From Escherichia coli (lineage in GTDB: Bacteria; Pseudomonadota; Gammaproteobacteria; Enterobacterales; Enterobacteriaceae), in NCBI RefSeq assembly GCF_045037415.1, contig NZ_CP173438.1: a stretch of DNA of 64,000 nt; one strand, given 5' to 3'. Under the pieces are notes generated by a model. The model saw only the letters and a list, made by a program, of their open reading frames with translations, was not told the origin of the DNA and ran no database searches. The position numbers and the translations under genes were made by a program. Numbering within the stretch: position 1 is the first letter of the stretch; each line of letters starts with the position of its first letter. Below, in pieces: positions 2,438 to 7,988 of the stretch.

Positions 2438-3487
2438 TCAGTTATAGTTTATTTTTACGATGAGATCTTTTTTGAAAGGCCCATAAACGAGAGTCTCCCC
2501 CGGTTTTTGTGAAAGTTCAGCCTGGTAATCACGGGTAACCATCGCTCCAGTCTGACCTGGAATATATGTGGTGAAGCGTTTGTACTTATTAAACTTAATG
2601 TCTTCTTGTGTTTTTTGATCAGTAATACGCATTAACAAACCATTACCCATTTCCAGATGCGTATCATCATGTAACGTATCTGTCGTATAAAAACTGGTGA
2701 CAACATCAAATTGCTCGGTACAGTCGGCAGCAACATCTTTTATAGTAGATACGCTAAATGCAGCTTTGGGTCGATAAGTAGCAATAGAGTTTGCAGAGAT
2801 TTGCCCGAAATTAACGATCTGGCTTTCTGGAAAAATACGGACATCGACACTACAATCAAGAAATAAAATATTATTTAATCCATCAATAATATAACGTAGA
2901 TTTTTATTATCTGCTGCTAAGTTAGCACCACCTTCACCATCAAATTGCAGAACATTTACCACGCCAAAATCCCAGGTTTGATCCACTGCTGGACGTGCTT
3001 TAAATTTCACATATGCGCGAAAACGGGCATTAAACGTGACATTTTTTTGTAGGGTGCTGCCATTACAAACTGGATCATGATAAATACCACCATAATACTG
3101 TTCATACTTATCCAGACAGGCGAAAGTATCAATTCCTACATCGCTATCTTCATAGTCCACACCATTATAGGTTACACCGAATGTCAGGTATGGGTTATTC
3201 AAAATGTCTGCACTATTTATAGCCGGCATTTTAATCCAGGCATAAATATTTTCTGCGGGATCATCAGCTCTCCATCCTGTCGCGTTATCACAATATACCG
3301 TAACATTAACGTCATCGCTTTCCCAAATTTTTTGTCCCGGCTGGGCGTTTTCTGGAATTCTGAAGGAAGGTAAAGTACCACGTATTTGTGTATTACCACC
3401 TCTTTGATCCTGATAGCAATTTACAGCATAAACTGAAACGTTATAAAAAAGGCAAAGAATCGCCAGTAAACGGAAAAGCGTAATCAT
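2438..3487 (-). CDS. yqiI: Fimbrial tip adhesin-like protein (YqiI-like), 349 aa
   Basis: Last gene of a chaperone-usher operon; N-terminal signal-like segment; size and context fit YqiI. Identity by context, not by motif. Confidence 0.6.
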   Translation of the reverse strand: MITLFRLLAILCLFYNVSVYAVNCYQDQRGGNTQIRGTLPSFRIPENAQPGQKIWESDDVNVTVYCDNATGWRADDPAENIYAWIKMPAINSADILNNPYLTFGVTYNGVDYEDSDVGIDTFACLDKYEQYYGGIYHDPVCNGSTLQKNVTFNARFRAYVKFKARPAVDQTWDFGVVNVLQFDGEGGANLAADNKNLRYIIDGLNNILFLDCSVDVRIFPESQIVNFGQISANSIATYRPKAAFSVSTIKDVAADCTEQFDVVTSFYTTDTLHDDTHLEMGNGLLMRITDQKTQEDIKFNKYKRFTTYIPGQTGAMVTRDYQAELSQKPGETLVYGPFKKDLIVKINYN

Positions 3488-4233
3488 ATTTTTCCCTTCT
3501 TAGCAGGAGAGCTTTGGCAGAGGGATTGGACGGAATTACATTCGACTTTAAACATCTCCAGTCCACCATAGTCAGCAACAAAGCCTAACTGGAAAGTTGA
3601 GGGCAAGTTGTTCAAGTATTGAGTTGCAGAAGCAAACGGAGTCACCATAATGCTGTCTGCACCGGGCATCAGTGTCTTGCCGTTAGTACCGATATACCCG
3701 ACGGTGATGTGATAAGGCGTTGGATTATTGAGTGTCAGCCCTGCAGCGGTCCGTGTTATTGTGACTTTTTGTAAAGGCACCATCTGCCCTTCTTTTAATT
3801 CGATTGCTTTCGGACGCCAGAATAATTTCAGTCGACTCTGCATGGCGATTTGCATCACATTCTGTTCTTTAGTGCGAGGCGGAATTTCCCGCACGTTATA
3901 GTAGAACAGCGTTTCTCTGTCCTGCGGTAAGTTGTTTAATGAGGCCAGCGCCATCAGGCGAATTTGTACCTGTTCATCCGGCTCAATACGTTCCATCGGC
4001 GGCAGTGTTGATATGTAACCACGCGTTTTTTTACCGCTGGCATCTTCAATCCACGACTGAGCCAGATAGGGATCGATTTTACTTTGGTTAGTCAGACGGA
4101 CCGTTGCGCTTTTATTCGAAGCATTAAAAATGATACGTGTCCTGTCGGGGGAGACAGTCGCCTGGGCAAAATTGCAGATCCCCAGTAAACAAATCATTCC
4201 TGTTGTGATTAATGGTGATTTCATTATATTCAT
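3484..4233 (-). CDS. yqiH: Periplasmic fimbrial chaperone (PapD-like, YqiH-like), 249 aa
   Basis: 249-aa ORF with N-terminal signal peptide between usher and adhesin genes; 4-bp overlap with the downstream gene indicates translational coupling. Confidence 0.7.
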   Translation of the reverse strand: MNIMKSPLITTGMICLLGICNFAQATVSPDRTRIIFNASNKSATVRLTNQSKIDPYLAQSWIEDASGKKTRGYISTLPPMERIEPDEQVQIRLMALASLNNLPQDRETLFYYNVREIPPRTKEQNVMQIAMQSRLKLFWRPKAIELKEGQMVPLQKVTITRTAAGLTLNNPTPYHITVGYIGTNGKTLMPGADSIMVTPFASATQYLNNLPSTFQLGFVADYGGLEMFKVECNSVQSLCQSSPAKKGKI

Positions 4234-4239
4234 CCTGAA

Positions 4240-6777: not shown

Positions 6778-6846
6778 AAAAGACCCAAAGTTGCCGATGA
6801 CATATCATCGGCTTTACCGTCTGACGTTGTGCGTATTAATTGCCGC

Positions 6847-7410
6847 TTACTTGTAGTCGAGTACGTAATTGGCCTGTGCCTGCACGTTACCCGGGGTCGC
6901 GGTGCGTCCCAGAGATTCCATACGGGCTTTAAAGTTCAACTCCTGGTAGGAGTTAGTCGTCGGGAAGTTGATAGTGATTGGAGTGCCAAGAGTCACGTTG
7001 GTGTTGTCTGATTTCACCAGACGTACGCCTACATCAGTTGCGCCGCCGATGTTACCTTCCAGAGTGTTTTTAAGCAGGTTGGAGTCGGTAGCGTCAACAC
7101 TGGCAGAACTAAAGGTGATTTTGACTTTATCAACAGTGTTAGTGCCGTCAGATAAAATACAATCCTGCAAGTGAATGGTGACATCTACAGGAAGAGATTT
7201 CTGTCCGCTTTTTAATACAGTATCAGCAACTTCACCGAGGTTTATTGTCTGATCTTCATCACCAGGAGCAATAGAACAAGGCGCATCGATAACTTCACCT
7301 TTAAATGTTATTTTACCAGAACCCTGATTTGGGTCATCAGCAAGCGCGTTAAAAGCAACGCCAGATAACAATGCGGTTGCGAACATAGATAACAATGTTT
7401 TTTTTAACAT
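6847..7410 (-). CDS. ygiL: Major fimbrial subunit (FimA-like, YgiL-like), 187 aa
   Basis: Signal peptide, then ...GKITFKGEVIDAPCSI... and C-terminal ...QANYVLDYK, typical of type-1-like pilin; first gene of the operon. Confidence 0.7.
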   Translation of the reverse strand: MLKKTLLSMFATALLSGVAFNALADDPNQGSGKITFKGEVIDAPCSIAPGDEDQTINLGEVADTVLKSGQKSLPVDVTIHLQDCILSDGTNTVDKVKITFSSASVDATDSNLLKNTLEGNIGGATDVGVRLVKSDNTNVTLGTPITINFPTTNSYQELNFKARMESLGRTATPGNVQAQANYVLDYK

Positions 7411-7988
7411 GACTATAATCCTTTATAGATTAGGATAGGCTGTGAATGGGACAATTAATACAGGTCTAATTTAATATTAATTGCATAGAGAGATTACCAT
7501 AGTTAGAGGTGGCCAGATATGTTTATATTGAAGATTGGTTAAGTAAATTTCAAACATATAATTTATAATTATATGTTTGAGCATATTTTTCTGGTTATTA
7601 GCTGTTTGAAGTTTTTATAATATATTTAGTGTATATTTTGATTGATAAATAGCCATTTATTTACAGTTATTTACACGGGTGTTGAAGTGGATTAGGGAGT
7701 GTTTTTTATGAAAATCGGAGGGAGGAATAACTTCAAAGATATAATATATATCTAGTGATACTTATTAAATTTTATTATCCTGAGTAATGTTTTATGGAGA
7801 ATTGATACATAATCAATATTATCGATCGATTGTTTTTTGAACAATCATGAGATATAATACAACACTTACTATGATCGAAATCATATACATGATCCACAAC
7901 TATGCGAGTATATGAATATATTCAACGTTGGATATGTGAAATTTTAACGCTAAATGTTTAGTAATGTTAAATTTTGAAGGTGAAAAGG
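7411..7988. promoter_or_regulatory. AT-rich control region upstream of the fimbrial operon
   Basis: About 580 bp of very AT-rich non-coding DNA with repeated TATATGTTTGA-like elements directly upstream of ygiL; typical of silenced or phase-regulated fimbrial promoters. Confidence 0.4.

What the first reader, a model, noticed from the sequence alone, without database searches (positions are those of the whole stretch)
2438..7988. Complete four-gene chaperone-usher fimbrial operon with an intact usher and about 580 bp of AT-rich control DNA
Major subunit, 845-aa usher, chaperone and a 349-aa adhesin-like subunit are all open reading frames with overlapping or closely spaced junctions. As I recall, the K-12 counterpart usher (yqiG) is disrupted by IS2, and no IS is present here. 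The upstream region 7411-7988 is extremely AT-rich with short repeated elements, consistent with H-NS silencing or phase control.
Basis: partly seen in the sequence, partly recalled or inferred. Interest (0 to 1): 0.3.

Follow-up and report, generated by a model that had tools for sequence, protein, structure and literature searches.

The report
Known Yqi (EA/I) fimbrial operon, ST131 allele

Summary
Window 2438-7410 (minus strand) carries four intact genes: major pilin, PapC-like usher, PapD-like chaperone and a two-domain tip adhesin. They are preceded by 578 bp of 27 % GC DNA and followed by a bidirectional terminator shared with ribB.

This is not the positional counterpart of K-12 ygiL-yqiGHI. 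K-12 has its operon between glgS and ubiK. Here that site is empty and the operon lies between ribB and yqiD/zupT. The proteins are only 38-62 % identical to the K-12 ones. It is the published 'Yqi' / ExPEC adhesin I operon of phylogroup B2, and the window is from O25b:H4-ST131. Fimbriae on over-expression, a chicken-lung colonisation role, glycan binding and H-NS/StpA occupancy have all been published for the APEC and CFT073 alleles. E. fergusonii and E. albertii have the operon in the same slot.

I found no support for phase variation. There is no recombinase and no Pap-like GATC/regulator set, and the allele-specific upstream segment is collinear in 525 of 526 genomes.

Beyond the literature I read, the ST131 allele is a mosaic. 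Its adhesin receptor-binding domain is 76 % identical to the characterised alleles (dS about 3, dN/dS about 0.05). Its promoter region is about 60 % identical to them and essentially confined to the ST131 group.

The parts
2406..2432 (.). Bidirectional intrinsic terminator hairpin (AAAATGCCGGG-loop-CCCGGCATTTT) between the ribB stop (2384) and the adhesin-gene stop (2438). It serves the two convergent transcription units.
   Evidence: 11-bp stem, 6 GC pairs, A/T runs on both sides; coordinates confirmed on both strands. It replaces the different ribB terminator seen in K-12.
2438..3487 (-). Tip adhesin gene (yqi / EA/I adhesin; 'yqiI' position), 349 aa. Signal peptide residues 1-21 (3425-3487), N-terminal receptor-binding domain residues 22-213 (2849-3424), C-terminal pilin domain residues 214-349 (2441-2848).
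   Evidence: Intact ORF. Residues 22-213 match PDB 9rwu (7.8e-99), which is 100 % identical to the CFT073 allele. The AlphaFold model (pLDDT 89) matches two-domain tip adhesins CupB6, FimH, LpfD and PapG. The C-terminal 137 aa hit Pfam Fimbrial positions 21-151, i.e. without the donor strand.
3484..4224 (-). PapD-like periplasmic chaperone gene, 246 aa (the ORF extends to 4233).
   Evidence: Pfam PapD_N and PapD_C. Best solved relative is PapD at 1.4e-48; the DRTR and KLF(W/Y)RP cleft motifs are conserved in the printed alignment.
4240..6762 (-). PapC-like outer-membrane usher gene, 840 aa from the ATG (845 aa if the TTG at 6777 is used).
   Evidence: Pfam PapC_N, Usher (3.5e-164) and PapC_C. 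Full-length match to PapC at 3.5e-170, against FimD at about 1e-86. It is 97.7-98.0 % identical to the APEC O1 and CFT073 ushers.
6793..6812 (-). Stem-loop GCCGATGA-TATG-TCATCGGC in the 84-bp spacer between the major-subunit and usher genes, followed by a T-rich run. Candidate partial terminator or mRNA-stability element that would favour major-subunit excess (inferred).
   Evidence: The local 8-bp perfect stem is clear, but the fold of the whole spacer is not unusual (z = -1.15), so this is only a candidate.
6847..7410 (-). Major fimbrial subunit gene ('ygiL/yqiL' position; c3791 in CFT073), 187 aa.
   Evidence: Pfam Fimbrial 1.2e-23. FimA- and PapA-like by PDB sequence search. Signal peptide and C-terminal ...YVLDYK seen. 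It is 99.5 % identical to the APEC O1 and CFT073 proteins.
7411..7869 (-). Operon-specific AT-rich upstream (promoter/control) region, 26.4 % GC. This is the ST131-type allele.
   Evidence: composition; the island ends at 7869. Only 60-64 % identical over 7436-7823 to the APEC O1/CFT073 allele. Found in 526 genomes.
7550..7580 (.). Perfect 14+14 palindrome TCAAACATATAATT-ATA-AATTATATGTTTGA. A third half-site copy lies at 7733-7746. Candidate operator; the binding protein is unknown.
   Evidence: 0 of 300 shuffles reach 14; 4 matches in the window against 0.66 expected. It is imperfect in the other alleles.
7736..7755 (-). Block CTAGATATATATTATATCTT that is identical in the three E. coli alleles compared, within otherwise diverged upstream DNA. 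It is not conserved in E. fergusonii. Candidate regulatory site.
   Evidence: Alignments; coordinates.
7870..7988 (.). Core intergenic DNA shared with K-12 (about 80 % identical), upstream of the divergent small gene yqiD.
   Evidence: Two of the region's three GATC sites (7873, 7891) lie here.
7989..8159 (+). Neighbouring, divergently transcribed yqiD-like small ORF (56 aa; c3790 in CFT073). It marks the boundary and is not a fimbrial gene.
   Evidence: Annotation; translation and comparison with K-12 YqiD. H-NS-bound in CFT073.

Best explanation
The region is the Yqi fimbrial operon, also called ExPEC adhesin I (EA/I) or 'Ygi' fimbriae, of phylogroup-B2 Escherichia coli. The window carries the allele of the O25b:H4-ST131 lineage.

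It is a 5.5-kb block (2385-7869) lying between ribB and yqiD/zupT. E. fergusonii and E. albertii have the operon in the same slot. It is not the K-12 ygiL-yqiGHI locus, which is a 38-62 % identical sister type inserted two genes away.

Mechanism, inferred from homology and established chaperone-usher biology: one transcript starts in the AT-rich region upstream of 7410 and ends at the bidirectional terminator at 2406-2432. The four products are exported by Sec. The PapD-like chaperone caps each subunit by donor-strand complementation. The PapC-like usher polymerises the subunits by donor-strand exchange. The two-domain adhesin has no N-terminal donor strand, so it enters first and ends up at the tip, with a rod of the 187-aa major subunit beneath it.

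Shown by others for sister alleles: fimbria-like appendages on over-expression, and a role in adhesion and chicken-lung colonisation (APEC IMT5155). The CFT073 allele binds terminal beta-GlcNAc, Lewis A and blood-group-B-type glycans.

Expression is most likely silenced by H-NS/StpA binding to the AT-rich promoter and the low-GC adhesin gene, and relieved by PapB-family or similar counter-silencers. This is shown by ChIP-seq and by TosR over-production for the CFT073 allele, and inferred for the ST131 allele.
For: Identity and position:
- The window is 100 % identical to many O25b:H4-ST131 genomes.
- Gene order is glgS-ubiK-ribB-[operon]-yqiD-zupT, as in APEC O1 and CFT073.
- The usher is 97.7-98.0 % and the major subunit 99.5 % identical to those strains.
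- E. fergusonii and E. albertii have the operon in the same slot.
- The island boundaries are exact: 2384/2385 and 7869/7870.

Machinery:
- Pfam domains.
- PapD 1.4e-48 and PapC 3.5e-170 are the best solved relatives.
- The adhesin N-terminal domain is homologous to PDB 9rwu, which is the CFT073 allele.
- The adhesin model is two-domain, with a PapG-like pilin domain.
- The pilin domain lacks the N-terminal extension.

Functional constraint: dN/dS is 0.02-0.19 in every gene and both adhesin domains across the divergent allele comparisons.

Literature:
- PMC2771359.
- PMC3559732.
- PMC8545135.
- TosR over-production raises c3791 by 5.3 log2 (PMC5956150).
- H-NS and StpA occupy c3790, c3791, c3792 and c3794 (PMC9765446).

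Composition: 26.4 % GC upstream and 38.6 % in the adhesin gene.
Against: - Nothing contradicts the identification.
- For the regulatory part, all experimental data are for CFT073 or APEC alleles. Their upstream region is only about 60-64 % identical to the window over 7436-7823, so H-NS binding and TosR responsiveness are extrapolated here.
- Consensus promoter scans and H-NS-motif counts are not above chance, so the promoter is not located.
- 'Ygi-Yqi' did not respond to human serum in either CFT073 or the ST131 strain EC958 (PMC13245861), so the inducing signal is unknown.
- The receptor data are for a lectin domain that is only 76 % identical to this one.
Confidence: 0.93

Rival explanations
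1. One reading: this is the intact version of the K-12 ygiL-yqiGHI operon, i.e. the same locus before IS2 disrupted the usher.
For: The gene order and orientation are the same, the product sizes are similar, and the chromosomal neighbourhood is the same. K-12 does carry IS2 between ygiL and yqiG, with a truncated usher N-terminus.
Against: The insertion site is different: glgS-ubiK in K-12 against ribB-yqiD here. The K-12 site is empty in the window. Proteins are only 38-62 % identical. The K-12-type adhesin (P0086, 39 %) is more distant from the window protein than homologues from Enterobacter, Klebsiella, Citrobacter or Salmonella (50-68 %). Wurpel et al. class them as separate, mutually exclusive types.
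Confidence: 0.03
2. The operon is a cryptic, effectively dispensable relic in ST131. It is kept silent by H-NS, never expressed to useful levels, and on its way to decay.
For: H-NS/StpA are bound in CFT073. There was no response to serum in CFT073 or EC958. A few ST131 genomes carry IS1 inside the operon or its upstream region (rows H1, H31, H91). One genome retains only 32 % of it (H90).
Against: All four genes are intact, and 992 of 993 carrier genomes retain at least 80 % of the region. dN/dS of 0.02-0.19 shows long-term purifying selection, even between alleles whose synonymous sites are saturated. The upstream allele is collinear in 525 of 526 genomes. Deletion phenotypes exist for the APEC allele (PMC2771359).
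Confidence: 0.12
3. Expression is phase-variable, through an invertible promoter segment (fim-like), Dam/Lrp methylation patterns (pap-like) or slipped-strand changes.
For: Many chaperone-usher operons are phase-variable. The region contains inverted repeats (12 nt perfect, 7451-7462 and 8012-8023), three GATC sites, and an A8 run at codons 2-5 of the major-subunit gene.
Against: No recombinase and no papI/papB-like gene is adjacent. The 12-nt inverted repeat has one arm inside the yqiD coding sequence and is not conserved in the other alleles. The longest inverted repeat is not above shuffles. GATC spacings are 49 and 18 bp, not the Pap pattern, and two of the sites lie in core DNA. 525 of 526 genomes have the segment in one orientation. 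The A8 run is identical in the three E. coli alleles aligned across the start codon.
Confidence: 0.05

Closest known systems
Yqi fimbriae / ExPEC adhesin I (EA/I) of APEC IMT5155, APEC O1 and UPEC CFT073 (c3791-c3794, 'Ygi' fimbriae)
   Same: Same locus (ribB-zupT), same four genes, phylogroup B2. The usher is 98 %, the major subunit 99.5 % and the chaperone 95-96 % identical. This is the family the window operon belongs to.
   Different: The adhesin N-terminal (receptor-binding) domain is only 76 % identical, with dS about 3. The pilin domain matches APEC O1 (97.8 %) but not CFT073 (83 %). The upstream region 7436-7823 is only 60-64 % identical, and the window keeps a 13-bp RBS-proximal segment that those alleles have lost and E. 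fergusonii retains.
E. coli K-12 ygiL-yqiG-yqiH-yqiI ('Yqi-like' fimbriae of Wurpel et al. 2013)
   Same: Same gene order and orientation, similar protein sizes, and the same Pap-like assembly class. It lies in the same 10-kb neighbourhood.
   Different: It is inserted between glgS and ubiK instead of between ribB and yqiD. Proteins are 38-62 % identical. The usher is disrupted by IS2 in K-12. It is present at 80 % coverage or more in 3,268 of 5,426 complete genomes, against 992 for the window type.
P (Pap) pili: PapD chaperone, PapC usher, PapG two-domain adhesin
   Same: These are the closest solved assembly proteins (PapD 1.4e-48, PapC 3.5e-170). The adhesin pilin domain superposes on the PapG pilin domain. 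The donor-strand-exchange mechanism is presumed to be the same.
   Different: There are only four genes: no PapH terminator, no PapE/F/K adaptors and no PapI/PapB regulators. The receptor-binding domain is unrelated in sequence to PapG. There is no Pap-type GATC/Lrp switch.
Yqi-type operons of E. fergusonii and E. albertii
   Same: Same slot next to ribB, with glgS abutting ubiK. E. fergusonii has all four genes with the same sizes; the E. albertii contig ends inside the chaperone gene. E. fergusonii shares the 13-bp RBS-proximal segment with the window.
   Different: The adhesins are 76-81 % identical. The upstream regions are strongly diverged outside a few blocks.

Membership tests
Classical chaperone-usher fimbrial operon | Periplasmic PapD-like chaperone with both Ig-like domains and the conserved subunit-binding Arg/Lys | tested here: met
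   Pfam PapD_N 1.5e-35 and PapD_C 7.6e-9. The alignment to PapD shows DRTR and KLF(W/Y)RP conserved. The residue numbering R8/K112 is from my own knowledge.
Classical chaperone-usher fimbrial operon | Outer-membrane usher with N-terminal domain, pore and C-terminal domain, uninterrupted | tested here: met
   PapC_N, Usher and PapC_C all above threshold with no internal stop. The match to PapC is full-length, residues 36-837.
Classical chaperone-usher fimbrial operon | Major pilin with signal peptide, Fimbrial domain and conserved C-terminal strand | tested here: met
   Pfam Fimbrial 1.2e-23 over profile positions 1-151. FimA/PapA homology. The C-terminus is ...YVLDYK.
Classical chaperone-usher fimbrial operon | Two-domain tip adhesin (receptor-binding domain plus pilin domain without a donor strand) | tested here: met
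   PDB 9rwu-type N-terminal domain. The model has pLDDT 89, and the fold matches CupB6, FimH, LpfD and PapG. The C-terminal domain hits Fimbrial profile positions 21-151 only.
Classical chaperone-usher fimbrial operon | Fibres actually assembled on the cell surface | not testable with these tools
   Shown by electron microscopy for the APEC IMT5155 cluster (PMC2771359). The CFT073 cluster was used functionally for glycan binding (PMC8545135). It has not been shown for the ST131 allele.
Yqi / EA/I fimbrial type (Wurpel et al.: usher phylogeny plus locus position) | Usher clusters with the Yqi ushers of B2 strains | tested here: met
   97.7-98.0 % identical to the APEC O1 and CFT073 ushers, against 55.5 % to K-12 YqiG. 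These are pairwise identities, not a tree.
Yqi / EA/I fimbrial type (Wurpel et al.: usher phylogeny plus locus position) | Locus position between ribB and zupT, in a phylogroup-B2 background | tested here: met
   (position). (100 % identity to O25b:H4-ST131 genomes).
K-12 ygiL-yqiGHI ('Yqi-like') locus | Located between glgS and ubiK | tested here: not met
   In the window glgS (823-1023) is followed directly by ubiK (1058-1357). K-12 has the operon there.
K-12 ygiL-yqiGHI ('Yqi-like') locus | Orthologue-level sequence identity to the K-12 genes | tested here: not met
   38-62 % amino-acid identity. There is no megablast match outside the flanks.
Pap-type Dam/Lrp phase switch | papI/papB-like regulator genes and two GATC sites about 100 bp apart within Lrp sites | tested here: not met
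   No such ORFs. GATC sites lie at 7824, 7873 and 7891 only. The Pap spacing of about 102 bp is from my own knowledge.
fim-type invertible promoter switch | Conserved inverted repeats around the promoter, a dedicated recombinase, and both orientations present in populations | tested here: not met
   The inverted repeats are not above chance and not conserved. No recombinase is nearby. The segment is collinear in 525 of 526 genomes.
H-NS-silenced AT-rich locus | AT-rich relative to the genome | tested here: met
   26.4 % GC upstream and 38.6 % in the adhesin gene, against 48.8 % for the window.
H-NS-silenced AT-rich locus | H-NS occupancy, and derepression in an hns mutant | not testable with these tools
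   Occupancy is published for the CFT073 allele (PMC9765446, Data set S1 sheet 1E). I found no derepression data, and nothing for the ST131 allele.

The most novel reading that the evidence does not exclude
The pandemic ST131 lineage carries its own version of Yqi fimbriae. It combines an ancient, separately maintained allele of the adhesin's receptor-binding domain with a promoter-region allele found almost only in the ST131 group.

The receptor-binding domain is 76 % identical to the characterised CFT073 and APEC alleles, with synonymous sites saturated and strong purifying selection. The promoter-region allele is about 60 % identical to the common one and contains a unique perfect 31-bp palindrome.

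If so, both the receptor specificity and the regulation of Yqi in ST131 would differ from what has been measured in CFT073 and APEC. The two modules are inherited independently: isolate SC477 has the ST131-type lectin domain with the common promoter. This points to modular recombination at the domain boundary.
Probability: 0.35. Interest if true: 0.45.

Novelty: already known. Interest (0 to 1): 0.18.

Why it matters
As filed, the finding is ordinary. It rediscovers a named, experimentally studied ExPEC fimbrial operon.

The useful outcome is a correction. The operon should not be annotated or discussed as 'the intact form of K-12 ygiL-yqiGHI'. That name transfer is common in annotations ('yqiL', 'ygi', 'yqi') and mixes two types that are 38-62 % identical and sit at different sites.

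The secondary observation could matter for adhesin-targeted diagnostics, vaccines or anti-adhesives. ST131 carries a distinct receptor-binding-domain allele and a distinct promoter allele. Receptor data and the solved structure 9rwu come from the CFT073 allele and may not transfer to the clinically dominant clone.

Tried and rejected
1. Promoter location: the sigma-70 consensus scan gave 19 hits against 14.2 +/- 4.0 expected, which is not informative.
2. H-NS nucleation-motif counts (TCGATAAATT, up to 2 mismatches): 3 in the region, not above shuffles of the region.
3. 'Short repeated elements': the longest exact direct repeat (10 nt) and the longest inverted repeat anywhere (14 nt) are within shuffle expectation. 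Only the close perfect palindrome stands out.
4. Rfam scan of 1-10000: only the ribB FMN riboswitch, and nothing in the operon or its upstream region.
5. The spacer hairpin between the major-subunit and usher genes has a clear local stem, but the overall fold z-score is -1.15. I kept it only as a candidate.
6. Donor of the ST131 upstream allele: two exact-pattern scans of the one-genome-per-species collection found nothing. The allele is no closer to E. fergusonii than the common allele, apart from the 13-bp RBS-proximal segment.
7. Paper behind PDB 9rwu/9rwv/9rx0/9rww/9rwe: not found in the library.
8. Spurbeck et al. 2011 (PMC3232662, 'ygi' fimbriae in CFT073) is not held. I cite it only through other papers' reference lists.
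9. Invertible-switch hypothesis: tested on population data and rejected.
10. Positive selection on the adhesin: Antao et al. reported dN/dS of about 4 within ST95, based on very few substitutions. Between allele classes I find strong purifying selection, so the deep divergence is not explained by rapid adaptive change.

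
Full report
**1. Observation**

The minus strand of window 2438-7410 holds four uninterrupted ORFs:
- 6847-7410, 187 aa.
- 4240-6777, 845 aa from a TTG. RefSeq annotation of an identical genome starts at the ATG at 6762, giving 840 aa.
- 3484-4233, 249 aa. The RefSeq start is 4224, giving 246 aa.
- 2438-3487, 349 aa.

Pfam assigns Fimbrial to the 187-aa protein (1.2e-23). It assigns PapC_N, Usher (3.5e-164) and PapC_C to the large protein, and PapD_N plus PapD_C to the 246-aa protein. The 349-aa protein has no Pfam hit above threshold.

The junctions are a 4-bp overlap, a 15-bp gap and an 84-bp gap. 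A perfect bidirectional terminator hairpin (2406-2432) sits between the convergent ribB stop (2384) and the adhesin-gene stop (2438).

Region 7411-7988 is 26.8 % GC against 48.8 % for the window. It contains the lowest-GC stretch of the 64 kb. No IS element is present.

**2. What it is and where it sits**

The window is 100 % identical over this region to many O25b:H4-ST131 genomes, which belong to phylogroup B2.

In an identical genome the gene order is yqiJ, glgS, ubiK, FMN riboswitch, ribB, [adhesin, chaperone, usher, major subunit], a yqiD-like small ORF, zupT, ygiD, dsbI, dsbL, assT. In a K-12 genome, ygiL-IS2-yqiG-yqiH-yqiI lies between glgS and ubiK, and ribB is followed directly by yqiD and zupT. 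The two operons therefore have the same orientation and gene order but occupy different intergenic sites, separated by ubiK and ribB.

Alignment with the empty K-12 site shows that homology stops at the ribB stop codon (window 2384) and resumes at 7870. So 5,485 bp here replace 143 bp of K-12 spacer.

Identities to the K-12 proteins are 38-40 % (adhesin), 49-50 % (chaperone), 56 % (usher) and 60-62 % (major subunit). The K-12-type adhesin (P0086, 39 %) is more distant from the window protein than homologues from Enterobacter, Klebsiella, Citrobacter, Kluyvera or Salmonella at 50-68 %. The two operons are therefore old sister lineages, not alleles of one locus.

E. fergusonii has the whole operon between zupT/yqiD and ribB, with glgS next to ubiK. 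An E. albertii contig shows the adhesin gene next to ribB in the same way. The window's position is therefore the likely ancestral one for the genus.

**3. It is a known system**

Wurpel et al. 2013 (PMC3559732) distinguish 'Yqi' fimbriae (phylogroup B2) from 'Yqi-like' fimbriae (A, B1, D, E). They describe them as closely related, mutually exclusive and at different locus positions.

Antao et al. 2009 (PMC2771359) found the adhesin gene yqi by signature-tagged mutagenesis in APEC IMT5155 and named it ExPEC adhesin I. They described the 4,975-bp four-gene cluster and showed reduced adhesion and chicken-lung colonisation on deletion. They saw short fimbria-like appendages by electron microscopy after over-expressing the cluster in afimbriate AAEC189. 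They also noted that the cluster is absent from K-12 and from intestinal pathotypes.

Day et al. 2021 (PMC8545135) expressed the CFT073 cluster. They found binding to terminal beta-GlcNAc structures, Lewis A, a blood-group-B glycan and alpha-Gal-Lewis X.

The APEC O1 and CFT073 loci have the same position and organisation as the window. The ushers are 97.7-98.0 % identical and the major subunits 99.5 %.

Across 5,426 complete E. coli genomes, 992 carry at least 80 % of the window operon. The K-12 type is present at the same coverage in 3,268. That leaves roughly 1,170 genomes with neither at megablast sensitivity.

**4. Mechanism**

The assembly proteins are Pap-like. The best solved relatives are PapD (1.4e-48, with the DRTR and KLF(W/Y)RP cleft motifs conserved) and PapC (3.5e-170 over the full length). 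FimC and FimD score about 1e-30 and 1e-86.

Residues 22-213 of the 349-aa protein match recently deposited structures of an isolated N-terminal domain. PDB 9rwu/9rwv (7.8e-99) is 100 % identical to the CFT073 allele. Entries 9rx0, 9rww and 9rwe are more distant.

An AlphaFold model built on 47 homologues (pLDDT 89, pTM 0.80) is all-beta and has two domains. Its best matches are full-length tip adhesins: CupB6, FimH, LpfD, PapG, FocH and CsuE. Its C-terminal half superposes on the PapG pilin domain with TM 0.66-0.69.

The C-terminal 137 residues hit the Pfam Fimbrial profile from position 21 to 151. That is a pilin fold without the N-terminal donor strand. In chaperone-usher systems this is the hallmark of the first-incorporated tip subunit (established knowledge for FimH and PapG).

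I therefore infer the standard pathway. The subunits are exported by Sec and capped by the chaperone. They are polymerised at the usher by donor-strand exchange, with the adhesin at the tip and the 187-aa subunit forming the shaft.

An 8-bp stem-loop followed by a T-rich run (6793-6812) lies in the spacer after the major-subunit gene. It could attenuate read-through, but it is only a candidate.

**5. Regulation**

Direct evidence exists only for CFT073. Data set S1 (sheet 1E) of Hustmyer et al. 2022 (PMC9765446) lists c3790 (the yqiD-like ORF, scaled occupancy 0.35), c3791 (major subunit, 0.27), c3792 (usher, 0.09) and c3794 (adhesin, 0.25) among the H-NS-bound genes. All are also bound by StpA. 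This pattern mirrors the GC profile of the window: 26 % upstream, 39 % in the adhesin gene and 46-47 % in the chaperone and usher genes.

Over-producing the PapB-family regulator TosR raised c3791 by 5.3 log2 (PMC5956150). 'Ygi-Yqi' did not respond to human serum in either CFT073 or the ST131 strain EC958 (PMC13245861).

H-NS/StpA silencing with counter-silencing is therefore the best-supported model. For the ST131 allele it remains an inference.

**6. Phase control and repeats**

- No recombinase or papI/papB-like gene is nearby.
- GATC occurs only at 7824, 7873 and 7891. Two of those sites lie in the core segment.
- The long-range inverted repeats are not above shuffle expectation. The 12-nt perfect pair has one arm inside yqiD and is not conserved in the other alleles.
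- The allele-specific segment 7420-7870 occurs in 526 genomes and is collinear in 525.

Phase variation is thus unsupported.

What is non-random is a perfect 14+14 palindrome at 7550-7580; none of 300 shuffles reaches it. A third copy of its half-site lies at 7733-7746. With up to two mismatches the half-site has four matches in the window against 0.66 expected. A few short blocks are conserved across diverged alleles, such as ATGGTAAT and the AATTAATAT-containing block in all four sequences. CTAGATATATATTATATCTT is identical in the three E. coli alleles.

**7. What goes beyond the literature I could read**

Within B2 the operon is a mosaic.

*Adhesin domains.* The N-terminal domain of the window allele is 76 % identical in protein to both APEC O1 and CFT073. 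dS is about 3 (saturated) and dN/dS is 0.05-0.06. Neighbouring ribB has dS of 0.025. The C-terminal pilin domain is 97.8 % identical to APEC O1 but 83 % to CFT073. APEC O1 and CFT073 share the N-terminal domain (93.8 %) but not the pilin domain (85.3 %). The breakpoint falls at the domain boundary, around window 2850.

*Allele classes.* Among carriers, the N-terminal-domain DNA falls into two classes. The window type is found in 527 genomes at 99 % or more, plus 10 at 90-95 %. The ST95/ST73 type is found in 455 genomes at about 74-75 %. Antao et al. saw only two yqi groups (the ST73 complex against the rest) and did not sample ST131.

*Upstream region.* Over 7436-7823 the window is only 60-64 % identical to the APEC O1/CFT073 version, although those two are 99 % identical to each other. 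The window allele is found in 526 genomes. It retains a 13-bp segment next to the ribosome-binding site that E. fergusonii also has and that the common allele lacks.

*Independent inheritance.* Isolate SC477 combines a window-type N-terminal domain (90-97 %) with the common upstream allele. The modules are therefore inherited independently.

These are old allele lineages reshuffled by recombination and kept under purifying selection. They are not decay products. Whether they change receptor choice or regulation is untested.

**8. Verdict**

The finding is real but ordinary. It is a known operon, correctly recognised as a complete chaperone-usher system, but mis-equated with the K-12 locus. Novelty: already known. 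The only mildly new element is the ST131-specific combination of adhesin-domain and promoter alleles.

Noticed in passing
window 36694-38952 (parC) and 19809-21701 (parE): ParC carries S80I and E84V, and ParE carries I529L (plus V136I relative to K-12). To my knowledge this is the fluoroquinolone-resistance signature of ST131 clade C (H30-R), so the window probably comes from that sublineage.
   Followed up: partly
window 823-1357: glgS and ubiK are separated by only 34 bp. This is the empty site where K-12 and most A/B1/D/E strains carry ygiL-yqiGHI. About 1,170 of 5,426 complete genomes match neither operon type at megablast level, and I did not examine what they carry.
   Followed up: partly
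window 1479-1627: FMN riboswitch upstream of ribB (Rfam RF00050, 120.9 bits). It is the only Rfam hit in the first 10 kb.
   Followed up: yes
window 7989-8159 and 8221-8994: The yqiD-like small membrane-protein ORF is clearly diverged from K-12 YqiD, especially in its C-terminal third. Neighbouring zupT has dS of 0.10-0.13 between B2 lineages, against 0.025 for ribB, with a patch of 92-94 % identity at 8317-8516. This suggests that recombination tracts extend beyond the island.
   Followed up: partly
window 9971-13139; 21765-28957; 30179-31371; 41482-48955: Blocks annotated here that have no counterpart in the K-12 stretch fetched, or lie beyond it. They are dsbI-dsbL-assT; a TonB-dependent siderophore receptor with a FecCD-type ABC transporter and a MurR/RpiR regulator between parE and ygiN; an orphan Hcp-family gene plus a hypothetical gene in AT-rich DNA; and a TRAP-transporter/dehydrogenase cluster. 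Low-GC spots at about 13.05-13.7, 30.0-30.5 and 31.0-31.7 kb were not examined.
   Followed up: no
window 43567-61218: The window is identical to strain DFK.1 up to 43.5 kb apart from one mismatch at 31284. It then differs at about 200 positions, 146 of them within 43.5-49 kb (the TRAP cluster). This looks like a recombination patch between otherwise near-identical ST131 genomes.
   Followed up: no
related genomes: rows H1, H31, H91, H90, H225: A few ST131-type genomes carry IS1 inside the operon or its upstream region, or retain only part of it. This indicates occasional inactivation against a background of strong conservation.
   Followed up: no
PDB entries 9rwu, 9rwv, 9rx0, 9rww, 9rwe: A set of very recent structures of isolated N-terminal domains of Yqi-family adhesins exists. 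9rwu is the CFT073 allele. No accompanying paper was found in the library, and the entries did not appear among the listed Foldseek PDB matches.
   Followed up: partly
window 7405-7396 (codons 2-5 of the major-subunit gene): An A8 homopolymer (ATG TTA AAA AAA ACA) sits right after the start codon. It is identical in the three E. coli alleles aligned across the start codon. I did not check its length across the population.
   Followed up: no
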